Shown here: positions 1-16,415 of the stretch, piece after piece | Numbering within the stretch: position 1 is the first letter of the stretch | How the letters are laid out: each line of letters begins with the position of its first letter | NCBI RefSeq assembly: GCF_018336915.1 | Contig: NZ_CP064925.1 | Location: forward strand, 210,001-242,000 | Source of the DNA: Acaryochloris marina S15 | GTDB taxonomy: Bacteria > Cyanobacteriota > Cyanobacteriia > Thermosynechococcales > Thermosynechococcaceae | Reading direction: 5' to 3' | Length of the DNA stretch: 32,000 nucleotides | Position numbers and translations under genes: made by a program | Notes under the pieces: generated by a model | Databases searched by the model: none | The model's input: only the letters and a program-made list of their open reading frames with translations | What the model was told of the DNA's origin: nothing

Positions 1-1761
1 CTGGCCAATAATTGGAATGCGGAACCGACCTCCATCTAATGTGGCCTGGTTGGTGAATGTTGAGAGATCGAAAAAGTCTAATGCTTGAGTATAAACAGAT
101 GTTTCTATAGTTTGACTACCTACTCGTGAAATCTGAGGATTGTTCTTAGCGTTATCTCCAGTACCTTTAAATTCAGGATCAGTAACTTCCAGCTTAATAT
201 TAAGTTCAGCTGAAGTTGAATTACGTAATATGCCAGGTGTGATTGTTAAATTAGTTCCTGTCTCTACTTCAACTGGTTCAATTCTCTGTTGAGCTAAAGC
301 AATTGCAAGACCAAGTAATTTAGTCGCAGGAACACCTGAGCTAGCGACTTCTGCAGGGGAAGAGCCTGCTGGCAAAAGAGTGTTGATAGAATTTTGCAGC
401 GTTGATGCTTGTGAAAGTAACTGTTCAGCATCTTGAGACTTTGCAACTTCAAAAACACTTGTTGATGCTGACTGAATTACTGTTTTAACTCCACTTAGTG
501 TCGATATAGTGGTTCTACCAACTTGCGCAAAAGTGACTTTCTTTTCTTTTCGAATTAATTCTTGAATCTTATTTAGTGTTGGTTGAGTAAAGAAATCTTC
601 AATATCTTTCTGCAATGGATCATAAAAATCTTGCAAAGAAGTATTTAAAGAGTCTGCTGTTTGTTGGAGAGCTTCAAAGTCAGAGTCATTAGGATTGATA
701 GAAAAATCAGCGTATTGAAATGCAAACTCTAGTATTTCTTTTTGTCTTCTAATAGCTATTCTTTTAACTTCTCCAGGTTTTCTTTCTTCCCAACCACACT
801 TTCTATTTATTTTTGAGTTGTCTTTATTTGACTGCATATTATTGCAGTAAGAATTAGGTTTAAAACCTCTTGATCTAAAAAAACGTTCAAAAGGTTGTTT
901 GCCGATTTTTCTTATAGAAGTAAAGTAATATTTATAACGATCATCATCTTCTTCTAAATCAGATAGAGATTGGTGTATTTCTAGGTAGAATTTTTTAGGA
1001 TCTTCGACAAAATTTCCTAAGATACCTACATCTAAAATAGATGGCTCATGAGATAAATCACTGATATGTTTATATCCTATATTGTTCAGTAATATTTTAA
1101 GATTATCAGGAATTGGAAACTCTTCCTTTTCCAAAATAATTTCAACAGATTTACTTTTCAGTAACTTAAATGTTCCTCTGACTAACTGCTGAGTAAGATC
1201 TATCTCTTGACGCACTTTAACCATTGCTTTTGCTAGCCTTTTTGGATCATTGCTTGATACTTGGATTCCCCATAGTTGCAACTTAATTCCAGGCAATGGA
1301 AGATCAATAGCAGTTATAAATCTTTGAGCACTCTTAATATAGTCTTTAGTTCCGACTAAAAATATAATATTGCCACCTCCTTGACCAACTCCTACTCCTG
1401 CTTCTAGATTATTTATTGGTAGGTCGGATGCACAGCCAGGATCTTCAAAAGGTAGTTTATTCAGTATCTCGGTAATATTTTTTGATTTTCTATAATAGAA
1501 TAATTCGACTCTTTGAATTTTTAGTTTATTCTCATCTATAATCTGAGTATTATCTTTATCTATAATCTGAATATTATCCTTGCTTTTCTTTTCAAGTTTG
1601 GTCTTGAGTTCACTAAAGCAGTCTGAATCCATTGACTTTGATACCATTTCAGTTCCTGTATCTTTAGATGTCATTTCTTCAGCAGCAAGGGATTGAACAC
1701 TTTTCCCCAAAGAAGAAGTAGCACTCCACATCAAAGTAATAATAAGTAACTTGTAATTCAT
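1..1761 (-). CDS. Secretin-like (GspD/PilQ-superfamily) outer-membrane protein, first 587 codons; 3' end lies beyond the left edge of the window
   Basis: Not in the supplied ORF track because there is no in-window stop. My manual reverse-complement translation from the ATG at 1761 stays open to position 1. N-terminus MNYKLLIITLMWSATSSLGKSVQSLAAEE looks like a signal peptide. RVELFYYRKSKNITEILNKL ... NIIFLVGTKDYIKSAQRFITAIDLPLPGIKLQLWGIQVS fits the secretin N-domain to secretin-domain junction pattern. TGTNLTITPGILRNSTSAELNIKLEVTDPE...ISRVGSQTIETSVYTQ...GGRFRIPIIGQ fits the secretin C-domain pattern. A helical insert of about 250 aa lies between them. The gene is strongly AT-rich relative to the rest of the window. 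Confidence 0.5.
   Translation of the reverse strand, partial: MNYKLLIITLMWSATSSLGKSVQSLAAEEMTSKDTGTEMVSKSMDSDCFSELKTKLEKKSKDNIQIIDKDNTQIIDENKLKIQRVELFYYRKSKNITEILNKLPFEDPGCASDLPINNLEAGVGVGQGGGNIIFLVGTKDYIKSAQRFITAIDLPLPGIKLQLWGIQVSSNDPKRLAKAMVKVRQEIDLTQQLVRGTFKLLKSKSVEIILEKEEFPIPDNLKILLNNIGYKHISDLSHEPSILDVGILGNFVEDPKKFYLEIHQSLSDLEEDDDRYKYYFTSIRKIGKQPFERFFRSRGFKPNSYCNNMQSNKDNSKINRKCGWEERKPGEVKRIAIRRQKEILEFAFQYADFSINPNDSDFEALQQTADSLNTSLQDFYDPLQKDIEDFFTQPTLNKIQELIRKEKKVTFAQVGRTTISTLSGVKTVIQSASTSVFEVAKSQDAEQLLSQASTLQNSINTLLPAGSSPAEVASSGVPATKLLGLAIALAQQRIEPVEVETGTNLTITPGILRNSTSAELNIKLEVTDPEFKGTGDNAKNNPQISRVGSQTIETSVYTQALDFFDLSTFTNQATLDGGRFRIPIIGQ
1535..1582 (-). repeat. Two tandem 24-bp units inside the secretin-like gene (protein repeat KDN[IT]QIID)
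   Basis: TCTATAATCTGAGTATTATCTTTA is followed directly by TCTATAATCTGAATATTATCCTTG. The translation is KDNIQIIDKDNTQIIDE. Confidence 0.7.
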
Positions 1762-2169
1762 ATAGATATTTCCTTCTAAAATTTATCAATAGATTTACTT
1801 TTTTTTAGGGCTTGCTAAAAAATAAATTGAGCTGTTCCGAGGATCAAACCATACCAGAAATGAGAGTAGGTTGCTCCTTGCAAGGGTTGTTATAAAAGGA
1901 GATGGGTGCGGATCTTTTGAAGCGACAAGATTTATATTCCCTCAAAAAAGCCCATAAAGCAGATGGAGAATCTTTTGTAAGATGTTTAGTCAGCAGTTAA
2001 AGTTTTAGGCGAAGAAGAGATTTATAGCTTGAAAACTTTATATATCGTTCTGACAAGCTGCTGCCAAAAACATATCTCCTCATGTTTTGAGATTTTCCAG
2101 CCAAATGGCATTAGAGGCAATACCTGTAAATATCATTTACCGCAAGTAATCCACGTAATTTTATAGATG

Positions 2170-2585
2170 GGAAAGTATCGTCTTAAAAGAGCCGCACTTA
2201 AAAGAGATAAGGTCGTTGCCTTCTGTTGCAATATCGTCTTTCCATTTGTGACTGCTCCTGGTAACCAGAATGAGTCACCTTTGTTTAAAACAGCACTATC
2301 AAAGTGATGAGTACAGCTCGAACAGTAGGCATAGACCTGATCGAGACTATCATCAGCTTGGATGGCGCTTATGACAGTCGTGTCAACCGGAAGGCGATTT
2401 TCAATTGGGGTATGGTGCCTAATATCAACGAAAATCTCCGTGGCAGAAAGGTTCCAAAATGAGGACCCTAAACCCCATCTTCTAGAAGCGGTTTTTTTGC
2501 TATTGAGCGTGTCTTCGCTTGGGAAGATAAATTCAAGCGCTTGTTGCTTCGATTTGAGCGAATCAGTAACTTACATTACGCCTAG
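2170..2585 (+). pseudogene. IS5-family DDE transposase relic (C-terminal half, one frameshift plus in-frame stops)
   Basis: Manual translation gives GKYRLKRAALKRDKVVAFCCNIVFPFVTAPGNQNESPLFKTALSK*. After a frame change it reads TVGIDLIETIISLDGAYDSRVNRKAIFNWGMVPNINENLRGRKVPK*GP*TPSSRSGFFAIERVFAWEDKFKRLLLRFERISNLHYA*. The D-x-(A/G)-Y-D ... N-x-R ... ERxFAW..F(K/R).L..R(F/Y)E layout is typical of IS5-family C-termini. No terminal inverted repeats were identified. Confidence 0.6.
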
Positions 2586-2708: not shown

Positions 2709-5066
2709 CTACTGATCACCAAATTTTTGCCCCCCCTCTGTCCACTGTATGTTATACGGTTTGACAAGCCGATTCATTGGATATGTTGATATGTCTTTAA
2801 TCCTTTGGTTCGCTTGCTGCTTTGGCTTGCAGTTCTTAACAGGATTCGTGCTATCACTGTATTCTTTCCAAGACCACCCTATTCCGACAACGAAGAGACT
2901 ACCCCCATTCTTGACAAATTTCTCGATTGCATCAATCTCGGATTGAGTAAAGTTGCCCCAAGCATTCCCAATAATAAGAATGTTACCTTTATTGAGCTTA
3001 GTTTCGTCAATCGGAGCAGCAATATTCTCTACATCAGCTTCCCAAGCTTCCAATTTTGATTTTGGAGGAGCGTAAGGACTTCCTTTTAAAGAGACTATCT
3101 CGCAATGCCCACTCGAAATCAATATTTTCCTCTTATCTTTTGACGGATTTAGCCAGCCTAAAGATTGTTTCAGGAAGATAAAGCTATCCTTTCTGTTCCT
3201 CAAGACACCGTCATGTGCTGCAGCAAGAACTTTACCATCACCGTAATCCCGACGCGCTGCAACTATTATTTTCTTTTCTTCTAGCACTATTTTTAGCACT
3301 ATTTTCCAGGCATCATCTTTATCCAAAAACTTTATCTCCCCAGGAGTCCCTTGTGTATCAATCATGCTCTCAAGGAATAGATCTGTAAGTATATTTGTAT
3401 AAGCATCGTGCGTTTCCTGTTTGGCTTTTTTTAACTGCAACATAAGGCTAAAGCAAACCACCGCCGACACCAGGGAACCTGCTGCAATACCCCAAGCAGT
3501 TATGATTGTGCGCCGCTGTTGCCGATCTCGCAATTTAACACTGACATCAATAAACTGATTGGCTATATCGCTAAATTCGCCCAATACCTGCTTGAGATCT
3601 TGATTGCTGCGGAGTTCTTGTACTTGCACAAGCTTTACCCCACCCCAAAGATCGCTGTCGGCTTTCTTGTTTTTTTGCCAGATGACTACATCGTCATTGA
3701 GGCGGTTCCGTAAGGCAATAGCTTGACGATGCTCCTCAATCCAATCGTTCAGCTTTCCCCAGCAGGTCAATAAGATTTCATGGGCAATTTCCACTGTAGA
3801 GCCTTGAATCGCGACCGAGTGTTTCTCCTTGTCTTCAACAGGTGCATCGCCCACCAGCAAATTGTCATTAATCAACTGGGTTAGCACTGCCTGTTCCTGC
3901 CCATCCTGAAACTCCGAGCGATTTGCCCGTCGCCTGACGGGCTTCCATTCCGTCCCTGCCGCCTCATCGCCATTAATCTTCACCAGCTTCAAAAAAATTC
4001 GCTGTGCTGCTAACTTTTGCAGTTCAGGCAAATCTTGATAGATTTGATCGACCCGTTGCTGAAGCGCGCCGCGCACCCCACCCAGTCGGCGGTAAGAACT
4101 TAGATTCAGTGTCCGATCCAGAATGCCACGATCCTGTACTTCCGTCTTCCACAACAGATTGAGCGTATATTGCAACAGCGGCAAGTATCCCGCCTGCCCC
4201 TCTACATCCTTGATAATTTCTTTTACCAACCCCGTTTCAAACACAACGCCATGATGGGCCGCAGGCTGCTCGATCGCCAGCCGCAACTCATCTTGCTGCA
4301 TTTGGGTAATCAATGGGCGATGCTTTTGAGTGAGTCTGGCCAACTGATTCGCCTGAGGCGAATCAAGTCGCCCCAAGAAATCGGCTCGCATGGTTCCCAC
4401 AATCTTGACGAAGGGATCGTTAGCGTATTCTTTGCTCAGACTCACCAACCCCTTAATAAAGCAATCTCGCTTTTCCTTTTTACTGATGGTAAACAATTCC
4501 TCAAACTGGTCAACAAAGATCAGCCAGAACTCCCCCGGTTGCTTCAACGCTTTTACCACCTTGCATAGCGTATTCTTCTGCCCAGCTTTTGCAACCTCTG
4601 CCTGCGCTAGATTATAGCCACAACTGAGCAAACTACCATAGAGCTTCTCAAACGGATCGCGATCAGGGGTTAAAGTCAAACTGACAAACTCTTGCCCCCA
4701 CTTTTCAGATAGCCAGGGTAACAGGCCAGCCTTCACCACTGAAGACTTACCGCTACCCGATGCCCCCATCAATAGGACCAAATTGGTCTGCTCCATTTCA
4801 TTAGCTAACCCGAGTATGAATTGATCCCGACCAAAGAAGTTGAGGTGATCTTGCCGCTCAAATGCATCCAACCCTTTGTAGGGGGATGTCTGAATCAACT
4901 CGCGAGTCTTAATTTCATCCACCGAAATCTGAATAATCTTGGTTTGGCTTAGGGTGACAACCTGCCCCTGAATCACATTGAAGATATTGTCATCTCCCTG
5001 CACCTGTACATCCCCCAGCGCTTGTTGCTGGTTCGAGAGCCGCTGACCAAAATTATCGTTATTCAT
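2709..5066 (-). CDS. STAND-type P-loop NTPase (nSTAND1-like) with a C-terminal transmembrane helix and a GATase1/DUF4350-like domain
   Basis: 785-aa ORF. SPYKGLDAFERQDHLNFFGRD precedes Walker A LLMGASGSGKSSVVKAGLLP (G101-S108, nt 4743-4766). Walker B is WLIFVDQFEELF (D186). VEIAHEILLTCWGKLNDWIEEHRQAIALRNRL is the helical module seen after such NTPase cores. One hydrophobic helix, TIITAWGIAAGSLVSAVVCFSLMLQL, spans about aa 520-545 (nt about 3432-3509). The C-terminal 235 aa carry DGKVLAAAHDGVLRN...FLKQSLGWL and NILIIGNAWGNFTQSEIDAIEKFVKNGGSLFVVG...PMNRLVKPYNIQW. The start overlaps the upstream stop (ATGA, 5063-5066). Confidence 0.85.
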   Translation of the reverse strand: MNNDNFGQRLSNQQQALGDVQVQGDDNIFNVIQGQVVTLSQTKIIQISVDEIKTRELIQTSPYKGLDAFERQDHLNFFGRDQFILGLANEMEQTNLVLLMGASGSGKSSVVKAGLLPWLSEKWGQEFVSLTLTPDRDPFEKLYGSLLSCGYNLAQAEVAKAGQKNTLCKVVKALKQPGEFWLIFVDQFEELFTISKKEKRDCFIKGLVSLSKEYANDPFVKIVGTMRADFLGRLDSPQANQLARLTQKHRPLITQMQQDELRLAIEQPAAHHGVVFETGLVKEIIKDVEGQAGYLPLLQYTLNLLWKTEVQDRGILDRTLNLSSYRRLGGVRGALQQRVDQIYQDLPELQKLAAQRIFLKLVKINGDEAAGTEWKPVRRRANRSEFQDGQEQAVLTQLINDNLLVGDAPVEDKEKHSVAIQGSTVEIAHEILLTCWGKLNDWIEEHRQAIALRNRLNDDVVIWQKNKKADSDLWGGVKLVQVQELRSNQDLKQVLGEFSDIANQFIDVSVKLRDRQQRRTIITAWGIAAGSLVSAVVCFSLMLQLKKAKQETHDAYTNILTDLFLESMIDTQGTPGEIKFLDKDDAWKIVLKIVLEEKKIIVAARRDYGDGKVLAAAHDGVLRNRKDSFIFLKQSLGWLNPSKDKRKILISSGHCEIVSLKGSPYAPPKSKLEAWEADVENIAAPIDETKLNKGNILIIGNAWGNFTQSEIDAIEKFVKNGGSLFVVGIGWSWKEYSDSTNPVKNCKPKQQANQRIKDISTYPMNRLVKPYNIQWTEGGQKFGDQ

Positions 5067-6208
5067 CCTATACCTACCCAGGCTTTTGCCACAAATGTTG
5101 CCACTTGGGTCATGAGTTCTGCTAACGTCAGTACCCCGCTCAAACCTTGCTTTAGAGCCTCTATAACCTCATTGACAAGGCTTTTATCCGGTTGCTGCTT
5201 TTGTAATTCTTCCTGGAGCATCACGATTCTTGCCTCTGTATCTTTCTTTGCGAATGAACTGAGTGCATCTGTTACCGAAACCTCCTGTTTGAGTTTCACC
5301 AGCAGCGATACAGCCGATTCCAAGTCTGGATGACTGCCATGTGACTGAATATTACTTTGACTCAAGTTGACATTGCCCCCCGCTTGGATAGCGTTGAAGG
5401 GGGTGTTACTCCCGCTAATCGTAATATTGCCAAAGGATTGAGGGGAGTTGGGCATGGGGTCTACTAACGGCAAAGGTTCTGGGACTATCTCTGACTGAGT
5501 AGAATCTTGATTGAAACCTGGAACAGAATGACGACCCTTTCGATATTTCAGAACAGGAGTCAAATATTCCGAACTGCCTTCCAAATCGATCGCTCTACAC
5601 CCGAGCTGATAAGCCTCTTCGTAAGAGGTGCCAGCCCCCAAGGCATCATAAAATCCTTGAGAAAACTGAATCGCGGCCCGATCTCCAATGGGCTGATTCA
5701 TGCCAATCACACAATCAACAGACTCGTGAATCGAGGTTGCCTGCACCTCCGAATAACAGGCATTGAGCAAGACACATTCAACGCTCGGAAACGATTTAAA
5801 TAATTCTTTCAATGTTTTGGAGTTGACCAGTTTTGCCCGTCCTTGATCATCTTCAAGGACTAATCCCTCATCCCCCGATGTGGATAGCTCTGGCACAATG
5901 CCGATATCTCTGACAGCATCTTCTGAGAAGGTATGGGTTGTGTTCTGTCGAGAAGATGGTGAAGTTGGGGCTATCCATTTTCCCTCTCCATGTCCAGAAA
6001 AATGAACGATTTGAGGTTGGTGATCCAATAAAGCGCGACTGAAATCCGTCGTCCGAACCGCTAGTTTAGTGATGAGTTCAAAGTGATCTCGATCTTTGGC
6101 TCGTTCCAATCCTTCTTGAATCGAACGAACTTCTTCACTCAGACGTAACTGGGACGTATTCACAGGATTCGCCGTCAAGAGCAGAATCTTAATGTGTTTA
6201 AGGTTCAT
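5063..6208 (-). CDS. CHAT-like caspase-fold protease with a C-terminal helical tail
   Basis: 381-aa ORF. KILLLTANPVNTSQLRLSEEVRSIQEGLERAKDRDHFEL...IVHFSGHG (His73) and VECVLLNACYSEVQA (Cys151), followed by VIGMNQPIGDRAAIQFSQGFYDALGAG, match the short cyanobacterial CHAT-domain pattern. The tail (aa 258-381) holds a G/N/S-rich motif followed by a predicted helical segment. Confidence 0.8.
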   Translation of the reverse strand: MNLKHIKILLLTANPVNTSQLRLSEEVRSIQEGLERAKDRDHFELITKLAVRTTDFSRALLDHQPQIVHFSGHGEGKWIAPTSPSSRQNTTHTFSEDAVRDIGIVPELSTSGDEGLVLEDDQGRAKLVNSKTLKELFKSFPSVECVLLNACYSEVQATSIHESVDCVIGMNQPIGDRAAIQFSQGFYDALGAGTSYEEAYQLGCRAIDLEGSSEYLTPVLKYRKGRHSVPGFNQDSTQSEIVPEPLPLVDPMPNSPQSFGNITISGSNTPFNAIQAGGNVNLSQSNIQSHGSHPDLESAVSLLVKLKQEVSVTDALSSFAKKDTEARIVMLQEELQKQQPDKSLVNEVIEALKQGLSGVLTLAELMTQVATFVAKAWVGIG

Positions 6209-6269
6209 AAAGCTGTTTACCTCTCTGCCAATGCATAATTTTTGTTGCTAAAGCTAAAAGCCTTTATCC

Positions 6270-9200
6270 CTAGGCGAGCATGCCCGTGTTGCTGATTACT
6301 TTAGAGAGAGCTTGAAGCCCCTCTGAATTTGTAAAGTAGACCAGATGATCACAGCCCACTTCCTGAACTTGGGGTTGAGGAGACCGCCCCTCTGGCACCT
6401 GCGTAATGCTGTAAACCGTGGCCGCAATATCATTGACCTGTCCAAAAAACGGTAATGCCACTGCACTACTCATCACCTTCTGCATCAATCGCTGCAGCAG
6501 ATTAGAGTCTACGGCTGCTGGAGTAATGGAAGTATTACCCGCTAGGATCGTATAAGGAATTTGCGGATCGGGACTCGCAGCCAAAGACTTGAGAAATTCC
6601 GAACCCGGCTGCATCTGATCCAATGTGATATCAATCGTCTCAATCGCCGCAACCAAACTTCCCAAAACCTTTACAGGCCAAGCCACCGTTGATAGGCTAT
6701 TCAATCCAATTGCCAGAGCCGCTGTTCCCCAGGCTTGTACCGTGGGCCAAGGAGACCCCCCATTTGGGGTGCCCAGCATGATCAAATGGCTGACGATCTT
6801 ATTTCCGCCTTCCCGCTCAATAAACCAGCGCGAAACCAACCCGCCCATCGAATGCGCTACGATATGCAGCTCCTTGCCGTGCTTCACATCTAGACCCACA
6901 GCAGCCAGTCGTTGCTTCAATTCCCGCGCATGATTCTCAATCGAGGTATTCAGACTTTCATAGTCAAAAGCAAGAACCAGATCGTACTGATCGCCCAGTG
7001 ATTCTTCTTGTCCATTTACTGTCATTTTGGCAGTTCGAATACTGGGCACCATGCTTTCGGTATCGCCAATAATGCCGTGGATATACAGCACAATCCGCTT
7101 AGCTTTGGCAACTCGATCCTTGACCTGTGCCGCGTCCCTCTCGTAGCTCACTGTTCCATCAGACACCACGTTAACCGCTGCCAGAATCGGGTAATCGAAT
7201 TCTAGTTTTAGCTTTTCACTCACCACCTTTTGGAAGAAAATACGAATCGCCCCAGTGAGGCTACGTTCCCCTGTACTCACTGGGTTGGGCAAACGTTCTA
7301 ACGAAATCTCGGTTTTTCCTGCGGTTGTCTGTCCAAACCCCAAAGGTAGGAAGAATTCGCCATCATGGGCAATTGCCAACACCCGCTCGCCCTCTCCCAA
7401 TAGGGTATCCACAGATAGCTTCAAAGGGTGTTGAGGAGTTACCGTAGCAATTGTGTCTGCATCCACATGATTGAGCTCCAAAGCACTCAACCCAGGATCG
7501 GTACCGCGACTAGTCGTGAATTGAAAGGGCTGAGCCACCGTATCATCCTCTCGTAGTATCGGTGGCAACACCAAACTGCCTAGATCTCGCGTAGATTGCG
7601 TGACGGTGGTTAACCTGACTTGCGCCTTTAAGCCGGGATGAGGTTGGATACTCACTCCAACTCCTAAAGAAGCACTACTGCCTTCATTCGGAACAGGGGT
7701 GGCATCTAAAGGCCGCACAGTTGTAATGCTGACCTGGCTACTAACCCAATCATCGTAGAGTTCTTCTTCATCAGGTACTGCTCCAAGATCACGAGTTTGC
7801 ACCCGTCGCATCAGACGATTTAATGTGCCTTGACCTCTATGAGGCATCCTCACTTCACGGGAAGCGGGTAAGCCTAAATTTTCTTGTTCGAGCAATGTGG
7901 CGTCAAATTCAGCCGTGCTGACCATCAGTTTCAACAGATCTTTCGTTTCAGTGATTCCACACTCCCAAAGTTCTTGCTGTACTGAGGCTGGAATAGGTTT
8001 TCCTTCGTATGCCCACGATTCCTCTCCCTTGTCGAGCCAGATTCCCCCTCCAGGTAGCAAACCCTTAGTACTGACAGAGTAACGATCCGTCAAATCTAGC
8101 AGGGCACAGTAAAGGGGTTCACTGCTGGTATTTCTGAGCTTGACCTTGAAAGAGGGTCGCTTCCATTTACCATTCTCCAATTGATACTCTAGTCGAATCT
8201 GAGACTCTTGCAGTTCTTTCCCATCTTGGCTCAGAGACATCTGCACGGCCCCAGGCTGAATCCGGCTGGTTGCTGGGCTGGAGAGTTCGGCAATATTTGT
8301 CCAACGAGCCATATGCTCCAATTGCTGAATCGCCTTCATGGCAATCGTGGCACTATAACCCTGGATTTCGGCAACCAGTGGGCGATCGTCAGTGGGCCTA
8401 GAAATCACATATTGCCCTTCACGCGCCAATAACTTAAATTCTGCCGTTTCAGCCGTAACCACTTCCTTGACATATAGTGATGGCTGCTGAGCTGAGCCAA
8501 ATTTTTGCAAAGCTGCACGAGCGAATTGAATTCCATCTAAATCCCCAGCCATCAAAATGCCTTTGGGCGGCAAAGGCAAACTGGTGATCACTGCTTTATA
8601 AGTTGTCTCTGGATTTAAGTCCTCAACGCCATTGATTTGAATCGTACTGAGATGTGGCAGGATCTTGATGACTTCGCCAGTCCCGATTTTCTCGGACAAC
8701 TGACGTAATTGTTCAGGTGAACAATCTAAGGGGAACAATGCCAGTAAGGTTGTTTGCCCTCCAGCAGGTTGTGAAATCCCATGCACCGCGCCCCCATCGA
8801 TCGCCCAGCCATGATCTTTGTTATGACTGACGGTGAAGTAGGGCGTAGAGGGTGCGATCGCTCCTCCTAGAAACGGCTGGTCTAAATCCTTTGGATGGGT
8901 AGCTTCAATTTGGGGTGATTGATTCGTTAGCTTCGATCTCACTAACGCATTGGTTCGTTTAAATAAGTCTCGGTAAGTTAAACTCCCATTGGCTTTATGC
9001 AACGTATCCAGCAAGAAGTAAGAGAATGCACCTCTTGATTTCTGATCCCCGTTGTACTCTTTTGCAAGTTCGCTATCTCGGCAGGCAGAGAGGACAATAT
9101 GTTGACCTTTGGGTAAAGTCCAGCCACTCGAATTGGAGTCTGGATGGGCTGTAGAACCCGATAAGTGTTCGATATCTGTTAAGGAGAAGATATAACTATC

Positions 9201-9731
9201 TAGTGGTCGTTTACGGCGATCACAGGGAGCGTTGCGAACGACTGTATCGTCCCATAAATCACCACGAGTCCCCGATCCCGAATGGCAACAGTCCAAAATA
9301 GCCGTGATGTGCGGTTTCTTCTGGTCTACTTCAGCAATCAGTTTCGCGAGTTCTTTATCTGCTAGCCCCCAGCCATCCTCATTTAGACTGTCAAAACAAA
9401 CCAGGGTTTCATCCAGGCGATCCGGTTCAAATTTCCAAAAGGCTTCAGGAGAGTCTTGTTGTCCACCATGTCCAGCGTAGTAGAACAAAGCAACGTCTTC
9501 ATTGCCCGCTTGACACAGGTGTTGACGAAAGTTGTCAATGACGGCTTGACGAGTGGCTTGTTCATTAAGCAGAGTACACAGGTGAAGCTGATAGCCATCC
9601 TTCGCAATTCGTCCTTTCAAATAGTCTTTGAATGCCAGAATATCGTTGACACAACCTTTTAGCGGCTTGCCGGGGCTAACGTAATTATCAATACCAACTA
9701 ACAGAGCATAAAGATTTTGAGCCATAACCAT
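6270..9731 (-). CDS. Orthocaspase (peptidase C14) fused to a C-terminal alpha/beta-hydrolase (lipase/PGAP1-like), with an uncharacterised middle region of about 550 aa
   Basis: 1153-aa ORF. The N-terminal caspase fold shows YALLVGIDNY, His88 in FYYAGHGG (codon 9468-9470) and Cys149 in LDCCHSGSG (codon 9285-9287). The C-terminal hydrolase (about aa 875-1153, nt about 6273-7107) shows the oxyanion HG in VLYIHGIIGD, the nucleophile elbow HIVAHSMGG (Ser961, codon 6849-6851), IMLGTPNGGSPW, and a late GCDH. An SD-like AAGGTGAG sits just before ATGGTTATG, so the true start may be the second ATG at 9725. Confidence 0.85.
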   Translation of the reverse strand: MVMAQNLYALLVGIDNYVSPGKPLKGCVNDILAFKDYLKGRIAKDGYQLHLCTLLNEQATRQAVIDNFRQHLCQAGNEDVALFYYAGHGGQQDSPEAFWKFEPDRLDETLVCFDSLNEDGWGLADKELAKLIAEVDQKKPHITAILDCCHSGSGTRGDLWDDTVVRNAPCDRRKRPLDSYIFSLTDIEHLSGSTAHPDSNSSGWTLPKGQHIVLSACRDSELAKEYNGDQKSRGAFSYFLLDTLHKANGSLTYRDLFKRTNALVRSKLTNQSPQIEATHPKDLDQPFLGGAIAPSTPYFTVSHNKDHGWAIDGGAVHGISQPAGGQTTLLALFPLDCSPEQLRQLSEKIGTGEVIKILPHLSTIQINGVEDLNPETTYKAVITSLPLPPKGILMAGDLDGIQFARAALQKFGSAQQPSLYVKEVVTAETAEFKLLAREGQYVISRPTDDRPLVAEIQGYSATIAMKAIQQLEHMARWTNIAELSSPATSRIQPGAVQMSLSQDGKELQESQIRLEYQLENGKWKRPSFKVKLRNTSSEPLYCALLDLTDRYSVSTKGLLPGGGIWLDKGEESWAYEGKPIPASVQQELWECGITETKDLLKLMVSTAEFDATLLEQENLGLPASREVRMPHRGQGTLNRLMRRVQTRDLGAVPDEEELYDDWVSSQVSITTVRPLDATPVPNEGSSASLGVGVSIQPHPGLKAQVRLTTVTQSTRDLGSLVLPPILREDDTVAQPFQFTTSRGTDPGLSALELNHVDADTIATVTPQHPLKLSVDTLLGEGERVLAIAHDGEFFLPLGFGQTTAGKTEISLERLPNPVSTGERSLTGAIRIFFQKVVSEKLKLEFDYPILAAVNVVSDGTVSYERDAAQVKDRVAKAKRIVLYIHGIIGDTESMVPSIRTAKMTVNGQEESLGDQYDLVLAFDYESLNTSIENHARELKQRLAAVGLDVKHGKELHIVAHSMGGLVSRWFIEREGGNKIVSHLIMLGTPNGGSPWPTVQAWGTAALAIGLNSLSTVAWPVKVLGSLVAAIETIDITLDQMQPGSEFLKSLAASPDPQIPYTILAGNTSITPAAVDSNLLQRLMQKVMSSAVALPFFGQVNDIAATVYSITQVPEGRSPQPQVQEVGCDHLVYFTNSEGLQALSKVISNTGMLA
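8854..8861. repeat. HIP1 octamer GCGATCGC
   Basis: Exact match. The highly iterated palindrome is characteristic of many cyanobacterial genomes. Confidence 0.9.
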
Positions 9732-10574: not shown

Positions 10575-11147
10575 CTAGAAAAACACCAACTTCGCAATCG
10601 CCCCCTCAACCTGCTCATCGGTGACTTCCAAGTACCCCGACAGTGCCGCCAGCGTCCGATGTCCTGATATCCGCTGAATATGCTTCGTCGGCACTCCAGC
10701 GTTGTGCATCTGGGTCAGAGCTGTTCGTCTGAAGCTATGAGTGCTAAACCCTTCCAATCCCACCCGACCAAAGGCTTGCCTCAAGATTCGATCTGCTGAA
10801 CTCACCCGCAAGTGAGAACGGCCATGCCGACCGGGGAACAGATAGGTGCGAGTCAGATCAGGTGCATAGGTTACCAAATAGTCATGCAACTGGGGATGCA
10901 TCGGTACTTCTCGCGTATCTCGCTTGCCCTTCGTCTGATGCCACCGGAATAGCACTGCTGATTTTGGGCCACTGGCGTTGATCACGTCACTGGTGAGCAG
11001 CGTACAGGCTTCACCGATCCTGCATCCGGTGTAGAGGCACACACCAAAGAGGGCCAGATCGCGGGGCTTGCTCAGACCATCACTGAAGAGGTGTTGAATT
11101 TGCTCTGGGGAAAGTACCCCAGCCTTACCGAATCGATCTTGTTTCAT
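10575..11147 (-). CDS. Short tyrosine recombinase (phage-integrase catalytic domain only)
   Basis: 190-aa ORF. It has the Arg in YTGCRIGEA, HSFRRT (HxxR), SGHRT and the terminal SGYLEV (catalytic Tyr). There is no N-terminal core-binding domain. Confidence 0.85.
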   Translation of the reverse strand: MKQDRFGKAGVLSPEQIQHLFSDGLSKPRDLALFGVCLYTGCRIGEACTLLTSDVINASGPKSAVLFRWHQTKGKRDTREVPMHPQLHDYLVTYAPDLTRTYLFPGRHGRSHLRVSSADRILRQAFGRVGLEGFSTHSFRRTALTQMHNAGVPTKHIQRISGHRTLAALSGYLEVTDEQVEGAIAKLVFF

Positions 11148-11163
11148 AATCTGGGATCTATTC

Positions 11164-11193
11164 TAGGAGGTCTTTTGTCAAAAAGACCTCCTA
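11164..11193. repeat. Perfect 13-bp inverted repeat with a 4-nt spacer, just upstream of the short recombinase start
   Basis: TAGGAGGTCTTTT-gtca-AAAAGACCTCCTA. Both arms contain an SD-like AGGAGG/CCTCCT. No U-tract follows on either strand. Confidence 0.8.
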
Positions 11194-11425
11194 AAGAGGT
11201 GAAAGTATTGGAAACTCGTGGAATTGAGGTGGAGAGGGGCAGGAAGATCGGGCTTATTGAGAAATTATCGAGTTATTGAGAATGAGATAAAAGTGATTTA
11301 AGGGTACGTCAAGGGTCCTTTCCATACACGTAGCTAATTCGTTCCACTGTTCTAAAGCATCCAAATCTTAATATGAAAACTAGTACCTATAGTGAAATTG
11401 AGCCGCGGTTTTTAGCAATACTGTT

Positions 11426-11824
11426 CTACTCATCATCCGTCAATTGAGCTAAATGAATGTGCTTTCTACCGACCTTGATCTCAAACTCATCGCCAGTTTT
11501 TAAACCCATCTTTTCGGTATAGGCAGACCCGATAACCATCTGCCCATTCTGATGAACTTTGATCCGATAGCTTGCCTCTCGACCCCTACCGTCGCTATTG
11601 GCATCACCATCTAGTGAAATGCCCTTGGCTTCCAAAATGGCATTCATAAAACCACTCATGTTAACTTGCTTGCCAACTACATAACCACACTCTTTCGCTT
11701 TTTCCCGCTTCGAGAGATGAGATAAGTCCTTGAGCTTATTGAGTAGTGTTTTCCCGACTAGGGGTTGAATATCTTTTTTCTTTGTGGCTGCTTTTTTCTT
11801 GGCAACTGCTGTTTTTTTAGCCAT
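11426..11824 (-). CDS. cyAbrB-family (AbrB-like, C-terminal SpoVT/AbrB domain) transcriptional regulator
   Basis: 132-aa ORF. A Lys/Ala-rich N-terminus is followed by LLNKLKDLSHLSKREKAKECGY...MSGFMNAILEAKGISLDG...GRGREASYRIKVHQNGQMVIGSAYTEKMGLKTGDEFEIKVGRKHIHL. This matches my recollection of the cyanobacterial CalA/Sll0359-type cyAbrB layout. Confidence 0.8.
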   Translation of the reverse strand: MAKKTAVAKKKAATKKKDIQPLVGKTLLNKLKDLSHLSKREKAKECGYVVGKQVNMSGFMNAILEAKGISLDGDANSDGRGREASYRIKVHQNGQMVIGSAYTEKMGLKTGDEFEIKVGRKHIHLAQLTDDE

Positions 11825-12113
11825 AAATACTGTATATCCTTAACTGAACTGAATTGCGAACGACTTAGCCTATCACAACTCCTAATTTTCATAAGGTCTG
11901 GCCTTATTGTCAGCTAACATCTGGAGGGACTGTGAGTAAGAGAGAATTGGTTGAGGCTTGGAGCAGATAGTGGAGGAAGAAAATAGTTTGTGGATAGTCA
12001 ACTAGACTTAAATTTGAGGCATTTATACTCCTAACGAACAACAATCTAAAAGACTGTAATCATCTCAGTCAGTACCGATGGGTTGTGATGTAGAGAGAGG
12101 GTTTTAAGCAAGC

Positions 12114-13013
12114 TTACCCATGGAGATAGAACTCAAAACCAGTTGTGAGAAAAGCCCCCATTTCTGAAATTGCAACACGTCCCTCTTCCAACACAGGTGC
12201 AAAGAGGTGGAAGCAGTGAATCATATCTGACCAAACCTTTAGCGTAACCTGGATATCGGCTAATCCGGCCTGACGCGCCAATCGCAAAGCATCATCAAGC
12301 AATACCTCAACAGCTCCGACATGTATCAAGAGTGGGGGTAACCCTGATAAGTCAGCATATAGAGGTGAGAGCAGAGGATTTCGCAAATCTTTTCCTGGAG
12401 CGTACCAATCCGTAATGGTATCTAACAGTGGAGCCGTGACCAGCAGATCTTTCTCTGCATGGCTAACCATCGTTGCGCCAGTTCTCATTTGGTCACAGTA
12501 GGGTGAAATTAAAGACACGCAGGCAGGTTGTGACTCTCCCAGATCTTTGAGAGATAACAGCAAGCCTAGGGCAAGATTGCCTCCTGCTGAATCTCCAGTC
12601 ACGGCGATCTGACTAGGCTGGAATCCACGGGCATTAATTAGCCAATGATAGGCAGTCAGGGCATCCTCTAATCCTGCTGGATAAGGATGTTCAGGAGCTA
12701 GACGATAGTCAATAACTAAAATACTTACGCCTGCTGCTTCTGCTAGATCGCTGGCTAAACGACGATAGGCTTGTAAAGATCCCATGATAAATCCGCCACC
12801 ATGGAGATATAAAATGATGCGATCTGATCGGCTGTTTGGGTGGGTGATTAGTTCTGCCGCAATGCCATCGACATCCACGACATCCACCTGGGCGGTAGGA
12901 TGTCGTGGCATCGACAACCCCATGGTAAAGTTAGCCCTCATCTCAGTGGGAGTGCTGCCCCAAGAAAGGTCTTGAAGCTGAGTGGTGATTTGGTTTAGTT
13001 CTTGTTGACTCAT
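12114..13013 (-). CDS. Alpha/beta-hydrolase fold-3 esterase/lipase (hormone-sensitive-lipase family)
   Basis: 299-aa ORF with the HGGG oxyanion motif (LYLHGGGFIMGS), the GDSAGG nucleophile motif (VTGDSAGGNLA), and a late DMIHCFHLF histidine region. Confidence 0.9.
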   Translation of the reverse strand: MSQQELNQITTQLQDLSWGSTPTEMRANFTMGLSMPRHPTAQVDVVDVDGIAAELITHPNSRSDRIILYLHGGGFIMGSLQAYRRLASDLAEAAGVSILVIDYRLAPEHPYPAGLEDALTAYHWLINARGFQPSQIAVTGDSAGGNLALGLLLSLKDLGESQPACVSLISPYCDQMRTGATMVSHAEKDLLVTAPLLDTITDWYAPGKDLRNPLLSPLYADLSGLPPLLIHVGAVEVLLDDALRLARQAGLADIQVTLKVWSDMIHCFHLFAPVLEEGRVAISEMGAFLTTGFEFYLHG

Positions 13014-13018
13014 AGTAT

Positions 13019-13255: not shown

Positions 13256-13258
13256 GAT

Positions 13259-14347: not shown

Positions 14348-14401
14348 GGTGTCCTCCTGATGAGCAAAAGGTTAGATTGAGTTCAAATGATAAACACTAA
14401 G

Positions 14402-16039: not shown

Positions 16040-16044
16040 GATGA

Positions 16045-16412: not shown

Positions 16413-16415
16413 AGT

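What the first reader, a model, noticed from the sequence alone, without database searches (positions are those of the whole stretch)
2709..9731. Candidate novel conflict or cell-death system: orthocaspase-lipase fusion, CHAT protease and membrane-anchored STAND NTPase in one operon
Seen: three co-directional genes with a 61-nt gap and then a 4-nt ATGA overlap.
- Gene 1 carries an intact caspase His/Cys dyad (YYAGHGG, DCCHSG) and an intact hydrolase nucleophile elbow (AHSMGG).
- Gene 2 carries a CHAT-type dyad (HFSGHG, LNACYS).
- Gene 3 carries Walker A (GASGSGKS) and Walker B (FVDQFEE) in an nSTAND-like core.
- Gene 3 lacks the WD40, TPR or other repeat sensor usual for such NTPases. It ends instead in one TM helix and a 235-aa domain.

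Established: STAND NTPases (Apaf-1/CED-4, bacterial Avs and bNACHT proteins) are ligand-triggered oligomerising switches. Caspase-fold and CHAT proteases are recurrent effectors or activators in prokaryotic conflict systems, for example the caspase-like proteases that activate bacterial gasdermins. Comparative-genomic surveys have described NTPase plus caspase/CHAT gene neighbourhoods in multicellular bacteria.

Inference: this is an apoptosome-like module. A membrane-embedded NTPase senses an envelope or extracytoplasmic cue and licenses two caspase-fold proteases. A lipase-type domain would be the terminal membrane-damaging effector, possibly released by proteolysis of the long linker. The location fits a defence-island setting: an IS relic lies on one side and recombinases, TA modules and IS elements on the other. 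I do not recognise this exact three-gene architecture as a named system.
Basis: partly seen in the sequence, partly recalled or inferred. Interest (0 to 1): 0.9.

Follow-up and report, generated by a model that had tools for sequence, protein, structure and literature searches.

The report
Membrane STAND switch with caspase-lipase effector
Three adjacent genes encode a membrane-anchored ATP-driven switch, a protease that shares a short docking motif with it, and a caspase fused to a lipase-like enzyme. Relatives of these genes sit together in many cyanobacterial genomes, so this is a real but untested cell-suicide or defence module of a kind that comparative genomics has already outlined.

Summary
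There are three co-directional minus-strand genes: a caspase fused to a lipase-like hydrolase (g1), a CHAT protease (g2) and an nSTAND1 NTPase (g3). The catalytic motifs, the 61-nt gap and the ATGA overlap are all as described.

The genes are linked elsewhere.
- g1 is a full-length-conserved family with relatives in 472 species genomes.
- In 59 of 71 usable loci, an nSTAND1 gene follows g1 on the same strand. Usually that gene carries its own fused caspase domain.
- The g2+g3 pair, with the same 4-nt overlap, is a widespread two-gene module. It occurs both with and without g1.

New points:
- g2 and g3 share a 35-residue Q/N/G-rich motif. It resembles an amyloid-signalling or adaptor motif.
- The transmembrane helix after the NTPase is typical of this subfamily.
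- The g3 C-terminal domain is a GIFT/IMPa-N-like fold. It also follows TIR, CHAT and caspase modules and occurs in surface proteins.

Best reading: an outside-facing sensor drives NTPase assembly, which recruits CHAT, which in turn cleaves and activates the caspase-lipase executioner.

Published surveys already describe caspase plus α/β-hydrolase modules, nSTAND1 systems and adaptor-coupled effectors. I therefore class this as a new variant of a known kind, not a new system type. No function was tested.

The parts
6270..9731 (-). g1: caspase / Ig-like middle region / lipase-like alpha/beta-hydrolase protein, 1153 aa; proposed executioner zymogen
   Evidence: ORF. Pfam Peptidase_C14 and DUF7379. 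At least 120 full-length homologue clusters at 55-83% identity. Relatives in 472 species genomes.
8889..9710 (-). g1 caspase (orthocaspase/metacaspase-type) domain, aa 8-281; H88 at 9468-9470, C149 at 9285-9287
   Evidence: Pfam E 5e-24. Closest solved relatives are metacaspases. The dyad is conserved in 117-118 of 118 homologues.
7107..8879 (-). g1 middle region, aa 285-875: beta-sandwich (Ig-like) domains with flexible, conserved loops
   Evidence: AlphaFold model with mean pLDDT 66.5, mostly strands. Only generic PapD/transglutaminase-barrel matches. No Pfam family.
7752..7877 (-). g1 aa 619-660: low-confidence loop holding the conserved TLNRLM..R...RD motif; candidate processing or docking site
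   Evidence: pLDDT below 50. R639, R643 and R647 conserved at 92% or more.
7503..7508 (-). g1 R742-G743 in the conserved SRGxDPG loop; candidate cleavage site
   Evidence: R in 99% and G in 91% of 118 homologues, in a low-pLDDT loop. An R|G motif is cleaved in LcHydrolase (10.1101/2025.11.14.688446). The link is inference only.
6273..7106 (-). g1 lipase-like alpha/beta-hydrolase domain, aa 876-1153; S961 at 6849-6851; D1101 and H1129 are the likely triad partners
   Evidence: DUF7379 and LCAT above cut-off. The IVAHSMGG block is identical to B. subtilis lipase A. S961 in 113/118, D1101 in 118/118, H1129 in 116/118.
5063..6208 (-). g2: CHAT protease with adaptor motif and helical tail, 381 aa
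   Evidence: ORF. Pfam CHAT. 120 homologue clusters at 47-64% identity, nearly all full length.
5570..6190 (-). g2 CHAT domain, aa 7-213; H73 at 5990-5992, C151 at 5756-5758
   Evidence: Pfam and PADLOC 'chat'. Matches PDB 8tl0 (deposited as 'CHAT domain-containing protein') at E 7e-11. H73 and C151 invariant in 119 sequences.
5348..5455 (-). g2 aa 252-287: Q/N/G-rich motif (SFGNITISGSNTPFNAIQAGGNVNLSQ) shared with the g3 N-terminus
   Evidence: Smith-Waterman score 61 against shuffles of 29.8 +/- 4.8, 0 of 500 reaching it. Conserved in 119/120 g2 homologues. The motif HMM hits only CHAT/nSTAND1 pairs, two per locus in 9 of 89 sequences.
5066..5332 (-). g2 aa 293-381: helical tail after the motif, function unknown
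   Evidence: Always 87 or more residues after the motif. PADLOC PDC-M14B covers aa 261-373 at E 5e-9. No Pfam family at E up to 10.
2709..5066 (-). g3: membrane-anchored nSTAND1 NTPase with an outside-facing GIFT-like domain, 785 aa
   Evidence: ORF. Pfam. Identical to an NCBI Acaryochloris marina protein.
4935..5039 (-). g3 aa 10-44: N-terminal copy of the shared motif (ALGDVQVQGDDNIFNVIQGQVVTLSQTKI)
   Evidence: Present at the N-terminus of 89 of 120 closest homologues.
3657..4883 (-). g3 nSTAND1 NTPase module, aa 62-470; Walker A at 4743-4766, Walker B at 4497-4517
   Evidence: Pfam nSTAND1 E 1e-105. Motifs read directly from the sequence.
3432..3506 (-). g3 transmembrane helix, aa 521-545, predicted N-in/C-out
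   Evidence: Hydropathy. Five K/R just before it, no net charge after it. Same position in 102/117 close homologues and 46/53 g1-linked nSTAND1 proteins.
2712..3428 (-). g3 C-terminal domain, aa 547-785: GIFT/TCAF_N/IMPa-N-like alpha/beta fold; proposed extracytoplasmic sensor
   Evidence: Model pLDDT 86.6, pTM 0.88. Best fold match is the IMPa N-terminal domain, TM 0.54, probability 1.0, then IFT52 GIFT. 410 homologous representatives, in conflict-system and surface-protein contexts.

Best explanation
This is a three-tier, NTPase-gated protease/hydrolase module of the 'bacterial apoptosis-like conflict system' kind.

Shown:
- g3 is an nSTAND1 NTPase with intact Walker motifs. It is anchored by one helix that places a GIFT/IMPa-N-like domain outside the cytoplasm.
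- g2 is a CHAT protease with an intact dyad.
- g1 carries an intact metacaspase-type dyad and a lipase-A-like Ser/Asp/His hydrolase.
- g2 and g3 share a conserved 35-residue Q/N/G-rich motif.
- The gene families are linked across genomes.

Inferred, step by step:
1. A ligand or damage signal in the periplasm or envelope binds the outer domain.
2. The cytoplasmic NTPase modules bind NTP and oligomerise. This clusters their N-terminal motifs.
3. The clustered motifs recruit the matching motif of the CHAT protein. This could be amyloid-like templating or simple beta-strand pairing. Proximity then activates CHAT.
4. CHAT cleaves g1 in its conserved flexible loops. Candidates are R742|G743 and the 619-660 loop. 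This unleashes the caspase and/or the lipase-like domain.
5. Proteolysis and membrane-lipid hydrolysis kill or arrest the cell. The role would be defence or regulated death in a cell community.

In most genomes steps 2-3 are short-circuited, because a caspase domain is fused directly to the NTPase.
For: - Domains and motifs.
- Conservation of both g1 active sites and of the CHAT dyad.
- g1 to nSTAND1 linkage: 59 of 71 genome loci have a co-directional nSTAND1 within 6 kb downstream. In 52 of them the NTPase protein starts with a Peptidase_C14 domain, 52/52 by Pfam.
- On plasmids of Anabaena, Rhizobium and Deinococcus, the g1 neighbour is again a second caspase-fold protease: TPR-CHAT, CHAT or caspase.
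- The same three-gene order with diverged proteins occurs in L082. Another g1 + CHAT + nSTAND1 arrangement occurs in L068.
- The g2+g3 pair with its 4-nt overlap is conserved. About 20 pairs can be inferred from shared contig lengths.
- Shared motif: significant in the window, conserved on both sides, found strictly in pairs. Its composition is rich in Q, N, G, I and V and poor in K and P, as described for BASS motifs (10.1101/2020.01.06.895854).
- Sensor swapping at the TM boundary: WD40, CHASE2, TPR, DUF4751 or GIFT-like domains on a 60-68% identical core.
- The GIFT-like domain follows TIR-nSTAND1, caspase-nSTAND1, CHAT and TIR modules, and occurs in cadherin/PKD proteins.
- Precedents: a caspase cleaves an alpha/beta-hydrolase zymogen to kill the cell (10.1101/2025.11.14.688446); SAVED-CHAT cleaves and activates a second caspase (10.1101/2023.06.23.546230); the adaptor principle (PMC7159879, PMC8195603).
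Against: - Nothing functional was tested.
- The CHAT+nSTAND1 pair occurs without g1 in several contexts. CHAT may therefore be an effector in its own right, or may act on a target encoded elsewhere.
- The nearest relatives of this g1 (76-79% identical in genome loci L002-L004) sit next to caspase-nSTAND1 fusions, not CHAT pairs. The window's combination is thus a recombinant whose compatibility is assumed.
- g1 lacks the shared motif (0 of 120), so nothing shows how it is recruited.
- The motif lies inside g2, followed by a tail of about 90 aa. It is not at the C-terminus as in described BASS effectors.
- Cognate motif pairs are only slightly more alike than non-cognate ones (51.2 against 49.3, permutation p = 0.013).
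- Two other split pairs (L068, L043) share no motif.
- g1 is unusually conserved for an arms-race gene.
- The substrate of the hydrolase is unknown. The lipase resemblance is weak by E-value (4e-4).
- Topology is predicted only.
Confidence: 0.55

Rival explanations
1. Two independent modules lie side by side. g2+g3 would be a self-sufficient sensor-protease pair with CHAT as the terminal effector. g1 would be a separate caspase-hydrolase cassette that lost or exchanged its own caspase-nSTAND1 partner in a region rich in mobile elements.
For: - g2+g3-type pairs occur without g1 in L083-L089 and L093.
- The closest g1 relatives pair with caspase-nSTAND1 fusions.
- The flanks are full of integrases and transposases.
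- g1 lacks the adaptor motif.
Against: - g1 homologues are almost always followed by an nSTAND1-linked or other sensor-linked caspase-fold protease.
- The order g1, CHAT, nSTAND1 recurs in L082 and L068 with diverged sequences.
- In the window the genes share a strand, with a 61-nt gap.
Confidence: 0.17
2. The machinery is the same but the biological role differs. It would not be anti-phage defence. It would be a regulated-death, differentiation or envelope-stress pathway of colonial and filamentous cyanobacteria, triggered by a periplasmic signal such as damage or a kin-derived cue.
For: - g1 is 55-83% identical across cyanobacterial orders, and many copies are chromosomal. This is atypical of fast-evolving defence genes.
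- The sensors face outwards, whereas most characterised antiviral STANDs sense cytoplasmic phage proteins (from my own knowledge).
- No PADLOC system-level match; only generic 'caspase' and 'chat' profiles and PDC-M14B matched.
Against: - Sensor-domain swapping on a constant core.
- Presence on plasmids in Rhizobium, Deinococcus, Anabaena and Nostoc.
- Shared modules with TIR effectors.
- A mobile-element context.
All four are typical of conflict systems.
Confidence: 0.2
3. The shared g2/g3 motif is not a templating or amyloid-like element. It would be an ordinary small beta adaptor, a remnant of a duplication, or a CHAT recognition or cleavage site on the NTPase. Coupling would then depend mainly on the helical tail of g2.
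For: - The motif is internal in g2 and is always followed by a conserved tail.
- Other CHAT+nSTAND1 pairs couple without any shared motif and have long helical regions instead.
- Co-variation between cognate motifs is weak.
- No Pfam adaptor family matches.
Against: - Position at the N-terminus of the NTPase plus the adjacent effector, length, composition and taxonomic setting all match published amyloid-signalling pairs. Those include CHAT partners (10.1101/2020.01.06.895854).
Confidence: 0.35

Closest known systems
Caspase + alpha/beta-hydrolase protease-effector modules (Kaur et al. 2020, PMC7159879; Evans et al. 2025, 10.1101/2025.11.14.688446: LcCaspase/LcHydrolase)
   Same: A caspase-fold protease is obligatorily associated with an alpha/beta-hydrolase. 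The modules attach to varied sensors, including STAND NTPases and beta-propellers. The hydrolase is a proposed or shown death effector activated by cleavage, and an R|G cleavage motif is reported.
   Different: - Here caspase and hydrolase are one 1153-aa polypeptide, separated by about 590 aa of beta-sandwich domains. A second protease (CHAT or a fused caspase) sits on the sensor.
- I did not test whether DUF7379 is homologous to the LcHydrolase family.
- The conserved R-G lies outside the hydrolase fold.
- The characterised examples come from Actinobacteria and Proteobacteria.
nSTAND1 NTPase conflict systems and the effector-associated-domain (EAD) principle (Kaur et al. 2021, PMC8195603; Dore et al., 10.1101/2023.09.22.558884)
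   Same: An nSTAND1 core with a variable C-terminal sensor. The N-terminus carries either an effector (caspase, TIR) or a small adaptor that is repeated on an effector encoded by the adjacent gene. The systems are enriched in multicellular cyanobacteria.
   Different: - The adaptor here matches no Pfam EAD family. It is a short Q/N/G-rich beta-type motif, not a helical domain.
- The sensor is a GIFT-like domain behind a TM helix, not FGS/CLec.
- No diversity-generating retroelement (DGR) is nearby.
Bacterial amyloid signalling sequences (BASS) in NLR/effector gene pairs (Dyrka et al. 2020, 10.1101/2020.01.06.895854)
   Same: A motif of about 25-35 aa sits at the N-terminus of the NLR-like NTPase and on the adjacent effector. 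It is enriched in G/N/Q/V/I and depleted in K/P. Genes overlap or are closely spaced, and the hosts are cyanobacteria. CHAT and alpha/beta-hydrolase are listed as alternative effector domains.
   Different: - The BASS families were defined on NB-ARC/NACHT proteins with Bell-domain partners. This NTPase is nSTAND1.
- The motif is internal in the effector, with a 90-aa tail after it.
- Identity with BASS1-10 could not be checked, because the logos are figures.
- Amyloid formation is untested.
SAVED-CHAT to PCaspase cascade of a type III-B CRISPR/CBASS hybrid (Steens et al., 10.1101/2023.06.23.546230)
   Same: An oligomerisation-activated CHAT protease cleaves and activates a second, caspase-type protease, which executes abortive infection. 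The g2 CHAT domain matches PDB entry 8tl0, deposited as 'CHAT domain-containing protein', at E 7e-11. I take 8tl0 to be this SAVED-CHAT protein from memory only; PADLOC's SAVED_CHAT profile also matches g2 weakly (E 1e-4).
   Different: The trigger there is cA3 binding to a SAVED domain and filament formation. Here it would be an NTPase switch with a membrane sensor. The second protease here is fused to a hydrolase.
Apaf-1/CED-4 apoptosome; bacterial Avs and bNACHT antiviral STANDs
   Same: A ligand-triggered STAND NTPase oligomerises and activates a caspase or other effector through proximity and homotypic adaptors.
   Different: Those are soluble cytoplasmic sensors with WD40, TPR or LRR arms and CARD-type helical adaptors or fused effectors. 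This one is membrane-anchored, with its sensor predicted to lie outside the cytoplasm.

Membership tests
Peptidase C14 (orthocaspase/metacaspase) | Profile match above the curated threshold | tested here: met
   PF00656 at 85.6 bits against a cut-off of 21.4. Metacaspases are the best PDB sequence hits.
Peptidase C14 (orthocaspase/metacaspase) | His/Cys catalytic dyad | tested here: met
   H88 and C149 are present. They are conserved in 117/118 and 118/118 homologues.
Peptidase C14 (orthocaspase/metacaspase) | Arg/Lys-specific proteolytic activity | not testable with these tools
   Needs enzyme assays.
Lipase-like alpha/beta-hydrolase (DUF7379 / LCAT / lipase A-like) | Profile match above threshold and a nucleophile elbow | tested here: met
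   DUF7379 at 56.9 bits (cut-off 33) and LCAT at 26.2 bits (cut-off 21). IVAHSMGG is identical to B. subtilis LipA.
Lipase-like alpha/beta-hydrolase (DUF7379 / LCAT / lipase A-like) | Complete Ser-Asp-His triad | tested here: inconclusive
   D1101 (118/118) and H1129 (116/118) are conserved candidates. They were assigned by conservation and order only; the hydrolase domain was not modelled.
Lipase-like alpha/beta-hydrolase (DUF7379 / LCAT / lipase A-like) | Lipolytic activity on membrane lipids | not testable with these tools
   The substrate is unknown. The substrate of the characterised LcHydrolase is also unknown (10.1101/2025.11.14.688446).
CHAT protease | Profile match and His/Cys dyad | tested here: met
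   PF12770 at 45.2 bits against a cut-off of 24. H73 and C151 invariant in 119 sequences.
nSTAND1 STAND NTPase | Profile match over the whole module, with Walker A and Walker B intact | tested here: met
   PF20703 at 354.8 bits, covering profile positions 1-378 of 379. GASGSGKS and FVDQFEE are present.
nSTAND1 STAND NTPase | Ligand-dependent oligomerisation | not testable with these tools
   Needs biochemistry or cryo-EM.
BASS-type amyloid signalling pair | The same short motif at the N-terminus of the NTPase and on the adjacent effector | tested here: met
BASS-type amyloid signalling pair | Motif at the C-terminal end of the effector | tested here: not met
   The motif is at aa 252-287 of 381. 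At least 87 residues follow it in all 119 homologues.
BASS-type amyloid signalling pair | G/N/Q/V/I-rich and K/P-poor composition | tested here: met
   Q 12.7%, I 12.6%, N 12.5%, V 9.6%, G 9.1%; K 2.0%, P 1.4%.
BASS-type amyloid signalling pair | Fibril formation and cross-seeding; identity with one of BASS1-10 | not testable with these tools
   The logos are only in figures. No amyloid predictor or experiment was available.
Named effector-associated domains (EAD1-12, bDLD) | Match to a described EAD profile | tested here: not met
   No Pfam family at E up to 10 for the motif regions or the g2 tail, apart from a chance PilP hit.
Protease/alpha-beta-hydrolase zymogen module (Evans et al. 2025) | Caspase-like protease genetically coupled to an alpha/beta-hydrolase and to a sensor | tested here: met
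   The two are fused in g1. nSTAND1 or other sensor-protease neighbours occur in most loci.
Protease/alpha-beta-hydrolase zymogen module (Evans et al. 2025) | Hydrolase homologous to LcHydrolase, with two R|G cleavage sites inside the hydrolase | not tested
The only conserved R-G (742-743) lies upstream of the hydrolase fold.
Known named defence systems (PADLOC models) | Hits to all components of a named system | tested here: not met
   Only the generic 'caspase', 'chat' and SAVED_CHAT profiles (the last weak) and PDC-M14B (g2 tail) matched. g3 has only marginal hits. PADLOC's system-level rules were not run.
Bacterial gasdermin + protease system | A gasdermin gene next to the protease | tested here: not met
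   No gasdermin family among the Pfam hits of flanking ORFs of 78 aa or more. Nothing is annotated in L001 either.

The most novel reading that the evidence does not exclude
The nSTAND1 proteins of this group would be transmembrane NLR-like 'death receptors'. An outside-facing sensor (GIFT-like here; WD40, CHASE2 or TPR in paralogues) would transmit across the membrane to a cytoplasmic STAND oligomer. A prion-like Q/N-rich motif would template the CHAT protease. CHAT would then cleave a conserved caspase-lipase executioner. That would be a complete extrinsic-pathway-like cascade in bacteria: receptor, then adaptor, then initiator protease, then executioner. It would use amyloid signalling between an nSTAND1 NTPase and a protease, a combination not described experimentally.
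Probability: 0.25. Interest if true: 0.85.

Novelty: new variant of a known kind. Interest (0 to 1): 0.6.

Why it matters
If the cascade works as inferred, it would be a bacterial counterpart of the extrinsic apoptosis pathway: a membrane receptor with an NTPase switch, an adaptor-recruited initiator protease and a conserved executioner.

- The executioner family has relatives in 472 species-representative genomes. It also occurs on plasmids of Rhizobium and Deinococcus. None of its members has been studied.
- The system offers a clean, mutable test bed with single-residue mutants for each step.
- It gives a defined peptide pair for testing amyloid-type signalling to a protease.
- It raises a concrete question: what do periplasm-facing STAND sensors detect in cyanobacteria? 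Their periplasm is thought to be continuous along filaments.

If the cascade is not confirmed, the locus still documents how sensor, protease and effector cassettes are shuffled at fixed junctions.

Tried and rejected
- The genome scan with g3 alone as query found no relatives. It was replaced by an alignment-based scan with g1.
- BLASTP of the g2 tail against the g3 N-terminus gave no alignment. Unfiltered Smith-Waterman with shuffles did.
- Promoter and terminator scans were not above shuffled expectation, so they say nothing about operon structure.
- Megablast of the locus against PLSDB plasmids gave no match, so plasmid or chromosomal origin is unresolved.
- A literature search for PDC-M14 found nothing.
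- I looked for a shared motif in the other split pairs, L068 and L043. There is none: scores were within shuffles.
- The metagenome scan with the g2 alignment mostly returned CHAT-domain-only relatives with other C-termini and no adjacent nSTAND1. It gave little on how often g1 accompanies the pair.
- The fold search of the g1 middle region returned only generic Ig-like and transglutaminase-barrel matches at TM about 0.14, so no function can be assigned.
- Pfam on the isolated motif and tail found nothing.
- I considered a gasdermin-type system and found no gasdermin gene.
- I considered that g3's conserved 'GHCE' might mark an enzyme active site. The Cys is not among the invariant columns of the domain alignment, so I treat the domain as a binding module.

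Full report
**1. Observation.**

The window carries three long minus-strand ORFs: 9731..6270 (g1, 1153 aa), 6208..5063 (g2, 381 aa) and 5066..2709 (g3, 785 aa). The g1-g2 gap is 61 nt, and g2 and g3 overlap by 4 nt in ATGA.

Profile searches confirm the domains above Pfam's curated thresholds:
- g1: Peptidase_C14 at aa 8-281, E 5e-24.
- g1: DUF7379 at aa 881-1004, E 3e-15.
- g1: LCAT at 26.2 bits against a cut-off of 21. Below-threshold matches to PGAP1, DUF676 and Palm_thioest back this up.
- g2: CHAT, E 1e-11.
- g3: nSTAND1 at aa 62-470, E 1e-105.

PADLOC gives only generic 'caspase' and 'chat' profiles, a weak SAVED_CHAT match, and a match of g2 aa 261-373 to the uncharacterised candidate PDC-M14B. 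NCBIfam adds nothing decisive.

g3 has one hydrophobic helix at aa 521-545. Five Lys/Arg lie just before it and there is no net charge after it, which predicts N-in/C-out.

The three proteins are identical to NCBI entries from Acaryochloris marina on a 298-kb contig. There g3 is named 'DUF4350 domain-containing protein', and g1 is annotated two codons shorter.

**2. The executioner-like gene g1.**

g1 belongs to a large family that is conserved over its full length. At least 120 clusters are 55-83% identical at about 99% coverage, from Nostoc, Moorena, Scytonema, Planktothrix, Microcoleus, Pleurocapsa and others. A scan of one genome per species found relatives in 472 genomes.

Across 118 full-length homologues, conservation is as follows:
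- H88 in 117 and C149 in 118.
- S961 in 113 (Gly in 4, Ala in 1).
- D1101 in 118 and H1129 in 116.

The caspase domain is closest to metacaspases among solved structures. Around its nucleophile, the hydrolase shares the block IVAHSMGG...GGNK with Bacillus subtilis lipase A.

The 590 residues between the two domains are not a linker. They model as a series of beta-sandwich domains (mean pLDDT 66.5), and only generic Ig-like fold matches turn up. Within this region, several low-confidence loops are strongly conserved and hold invariant basic residues. They include TLNRLM.R...RD (aa 635-648), SRG.DPG (R742-G743) and R823. Metacaspase-type enzymes are known to cut after Arg/Lys, and the one characterised caspase-activated hydrolase is cut at R|G (10.1101/2025.11.14.688446). 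These loops are therefore candidate processing sites. That is inference only.

Some homologues add a C-terminal TM tail. Surveys of cyanobacterial orthocaspases have listed an 'Abhydrolase' accessory domain without assigning a function (PMC7475262).

**3. Linkage of g1 to NTPase-borne proteases.**

I examined the 80 best genome loci.
- Of the 71 with at least 3 kb downstream, 59 have a co-directional nSTAND1 domain starting within 6 kb. The median distance is 1.3 kb.
- In 52 loci the downstream protein (850-2470 aa) begins with a domain of about 290 aa. All 52 match Peptidase_C14. nSTAND1 follows, and then mostly WD40 repeats.
- L068 (a Spirulina MAG) and L043 have a separate CHAT gene that overlaps an nSTAND1 gene, as in the window.
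- In two Moorena loci (L009, L061) the caspase-nSTAND1 protein ends in a relative of the g3 C-terminal domain.

On plasmids, the neighbour of g1 is again a second caspase-fold protease:
- Anabaena sp. 90: a TPR-CHAT protein.
- Rhizobium ruizarguesonis: a CHAT gene overlapping an unknown 767-aa gene, divergently oriented.
- Deinococcus aetherius: a 783-aa caspase.

The common denominator is one conserved caspase-hydrolase cassette plus one sensor-linked caspase-fold protease.

**4. The g2+g3 pair.**

g2 has at least 120 homologue clusters of 340-390 aa, with H73 and C151 invariant. g3's first 540 residues or so are 60-68% identical to many cyanobacterial proteins. Their C-termini are WD40, CHASE2, TPR, DUF4751 or unknown. 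Only one hit (P0002) shares the full architecture.

Look-ups show CHAT followed by nSTAND1 with the same 4-nt overlap in unrelated contexts (L083-L088). One ENA contig (L082) repeats the whole order: a g1-like protein of 1175 aa, a CHAT of 378 aa and an nSTAND1-WD40 of 1237 aa. These are 59%, 52% and 64% identical to the window proteins.

So the pair is a module in its own right, and g1 is a facultative third part. The nearest g1 relatives in genome loci (76-79% identical, L002-L004) sit next to caspase-nSTAND1 fusions. The window's combination therefore arose by cassette exchange.

**5. A shared motif.**

g2 aa 252-287 (SFGNITISGSNTPFNAIQAGGNVNLSQ) aligns with g3 aa 10-44 (ALGDVQVQGDDNIFNVIQGQVVTLSQ). 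The Smith-Waterman score is 61, against 29.8 +/- 4.8 for shuffles, and none of 500 shuffles reached it.

- Both copies are conserved: 119 of 120 g2 homologues and 89 of 120 g3 homologues, always at the N-terminus.
- An HMM of the motif hits exactly two proteins per locus, in nine of the 89 sequences scanned (88 loci plus the window). Those proteins are always the CHAT and the adjacent nSTAND1. It hits nothing in the 80 loci with caspase-nSTAND1 fusions, and nothing in g1.
- The composition matches the published description of bacterial amyloid signalling sequences: Q, I, N, S, V, G and T make up 77%, and K and P are rare. That paper also lists CHAT among the effector domains found with such motifs next to NLR-like genes in multicellular bacteria (10.1101/2020.01.06.895854).
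- The arrangement also fits the effector-associated-domain principle (PMC7159879, PMC8195603).

Departures from those models:
- The motif is internal in g2 and is followed by a conserved helical tail of about 90 aa.
- No Pfam adaptor family matches.
- Cognate pairs are only marginally more similar than non-cognate ones (p = 0.013).
- The other split pairs, L068 and L043, share no motif.

**6. Membrane anchoring and the sensor.**

A TM-like segment directly after the NTPase module occurs in 102 of 117 close g3 homologues. It also occurs in 46 of 53 nSTAND1 proteins next to g1 homologues, including those with WD40 repeats. The anchor is therefore a subfamily trait and not a peculiarity of this gene.

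The g3 C-terminal domain models with high confidence (pLDDT 86.6, pTM 0.88). Its best fold match is the N-terminal domain of the Pseudomonas protease IMPa (TM 0.54, probability 1.0). The IFT52 GIFT domain and peptidase E-like folds come next. This agrees with the weak GIFT, DUF4350, ABC_transp_aux and TCAF_N profile hits.

An exhaustive profile-free search found 410 representatives. A sample shows the domain in these positions:
- after nSTAND1, caspase-nSTAND1 and TIR-nSTAND1;
- directly after CHAT or TIR;
- in large cadherin/PKD/FG-GAP proteins.

It is thus a mobile module that conflict systems use repeatedly and that also occurs in surface proteins. This supports an extracytoplasmic binding role. 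The ligand is unknown. A carbohydrate is a guess, based on published ideas about GIFT domains (from my own knowledge).

**7. Mechanism.**

The best-supported model has five steps:
1. An outer sensor detects a signal.
2. The NTPase oligomerises.
3. The shared motif recruits CHAT, and proximity activates it.
4. CHAT cleaves g1.
5. The released caspase and lipase-like activities kill the cell.

Published precedents for individual steps:
- A caspase cleaves an alpha/beta-hydrolase zymogen and kills the cell (10.1101/2025.11.14.688446).
- An oligomerised CHAT protease activates a second caspase (10.1101/2023.06.23.546230).
- Homotypic adaptors couple effectors to NTPases (PMC7159879, PMC8195603, 10.1101/2020.01.06.895854).

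Gene linkage, intact active sites and the shared motif are shown here. Every mechanistic step is inferred.

Main weaknesses:
- g1 has no identifiable docking element.
- The pair exists without g1.
- The role (defence or regulated death) is open.

**8. Surroundings.**

The flanks are rich in mobile elements:
- two integrase genes, one of them truncated;
- an AbrB-like regulator;
- an esterase;
- a methyltransferase;
- HicB;
- Mutator and Tn5-type transposases;
- PRiA4_ORF3;
- a 3268-aa RHS-repeat ORF.

Positions 1-2300 are 33-35% GC and have no ORFs of 70 aa or more. I found no recognised defence system next to the locus.

**9. Verdict.**

This is a new variant of a known kind: the STAND-controlled caspase/hydrolase conflict systems of multicellular bacteria.

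Its particular features are a split CHAT/nSTAND1 pair coupled by a Q/N-rich motif, a GIFT-like sensor behind a transmembrane helix, and a fused caspase-lipase cassette. Interest is moderate to high, because the parts are widespread, unstudied and directly testable.

Noticed in passing
window 22120-31926 (-): A single ORF of 3268 aa with 16 RHS repeats and many He_PIG, Big_9 and cadherin-like Ig domains. It is a candidate giant RHS-type polymorphic toxin. Its C-terminal toxin tip and any immunity gene were not examined.
   Followed up: no
window 10575-21764: A stretch rich in mobile elements. It holds a truncated integrase (10575-11147), an AbrB-like regulator, an Abhydrolase_3 esterase (12114-13013), an HTH_65-methyltransferase (13259-14347), an integrase (14600-15574), HicB (16890-17222), a Mutator-family transposase (17466-18770), a Tn5-like transposase (18973-20106) and PRiA4_ORF3 (20308-20850).
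   Followed up: partly
window 1-2300: A stretch at 33-35% GC, against 45-50% elsewhere, with no ORF of 70 aa or more. ORF 2304-2462 resembles a transposase fragment. This is probably decayed mobile DNA.
   Followed up: no
L002-L081 and proteins P0001-P0120: nSTAND1 proteins with WD40 C-termini almost always have a TM-like helix between the NTPase and the repeats (46 of 53 and 102 of 117). Their beta-propellers are therefore predicted to lie outside the cytoplasm, which is unusual for NLR-like proteins.
   Followed up: partly
L168 (Rhizobium ruizarguesonis pRlX4), L169 (Deinococcus aetherius pDAETH-2), L170 (Anabaena sp. 90 pANA01): The caspase-hydrolase family also occurs on plasmids outside cyanobacteria. 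Each time it lies next to another caspase-fold protease: CHAT with an unknown 767-aa protein, a 783-aa caspase, or TPR-CHAT without any NTPase.
   Followed up: partly
g1 homologues P0145, P0205 and others (alignment A1): Five of 118 family members have Gly or Ala in place of the hydrolase nucleophile Ser, and two lack His1129, while the caspase dyad is kept. They may be inactive-hydrolase variants. Several homologues also carry a C-terminal TM tail that the window protein lacks.
   Followed up: no
g2 aa 261-373 (window 5090-5428): PADLOC's uncharacterised candidate component PDC-M14B matches only the motif-plus-tail part of g2 (E 5e-9). This adaptor module may sit on a different effector in another candidate system. 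No literature on PDC-M14 was found.
   Followed up: partly
L083/L084 1-4823: Next to one CHAT+nSTAND1 pair lie a guanylate cyclase-NB-ARC-WD40 protein and a second nSTAND1-WD40 protein, followed by polysaccharide deacetylase, CAP and chitinase-like genes. This is a cluster of NLR-like genes on what looks like a plasmid, since ParA/ParB and a resolvase are nearby.
   Followed up: no
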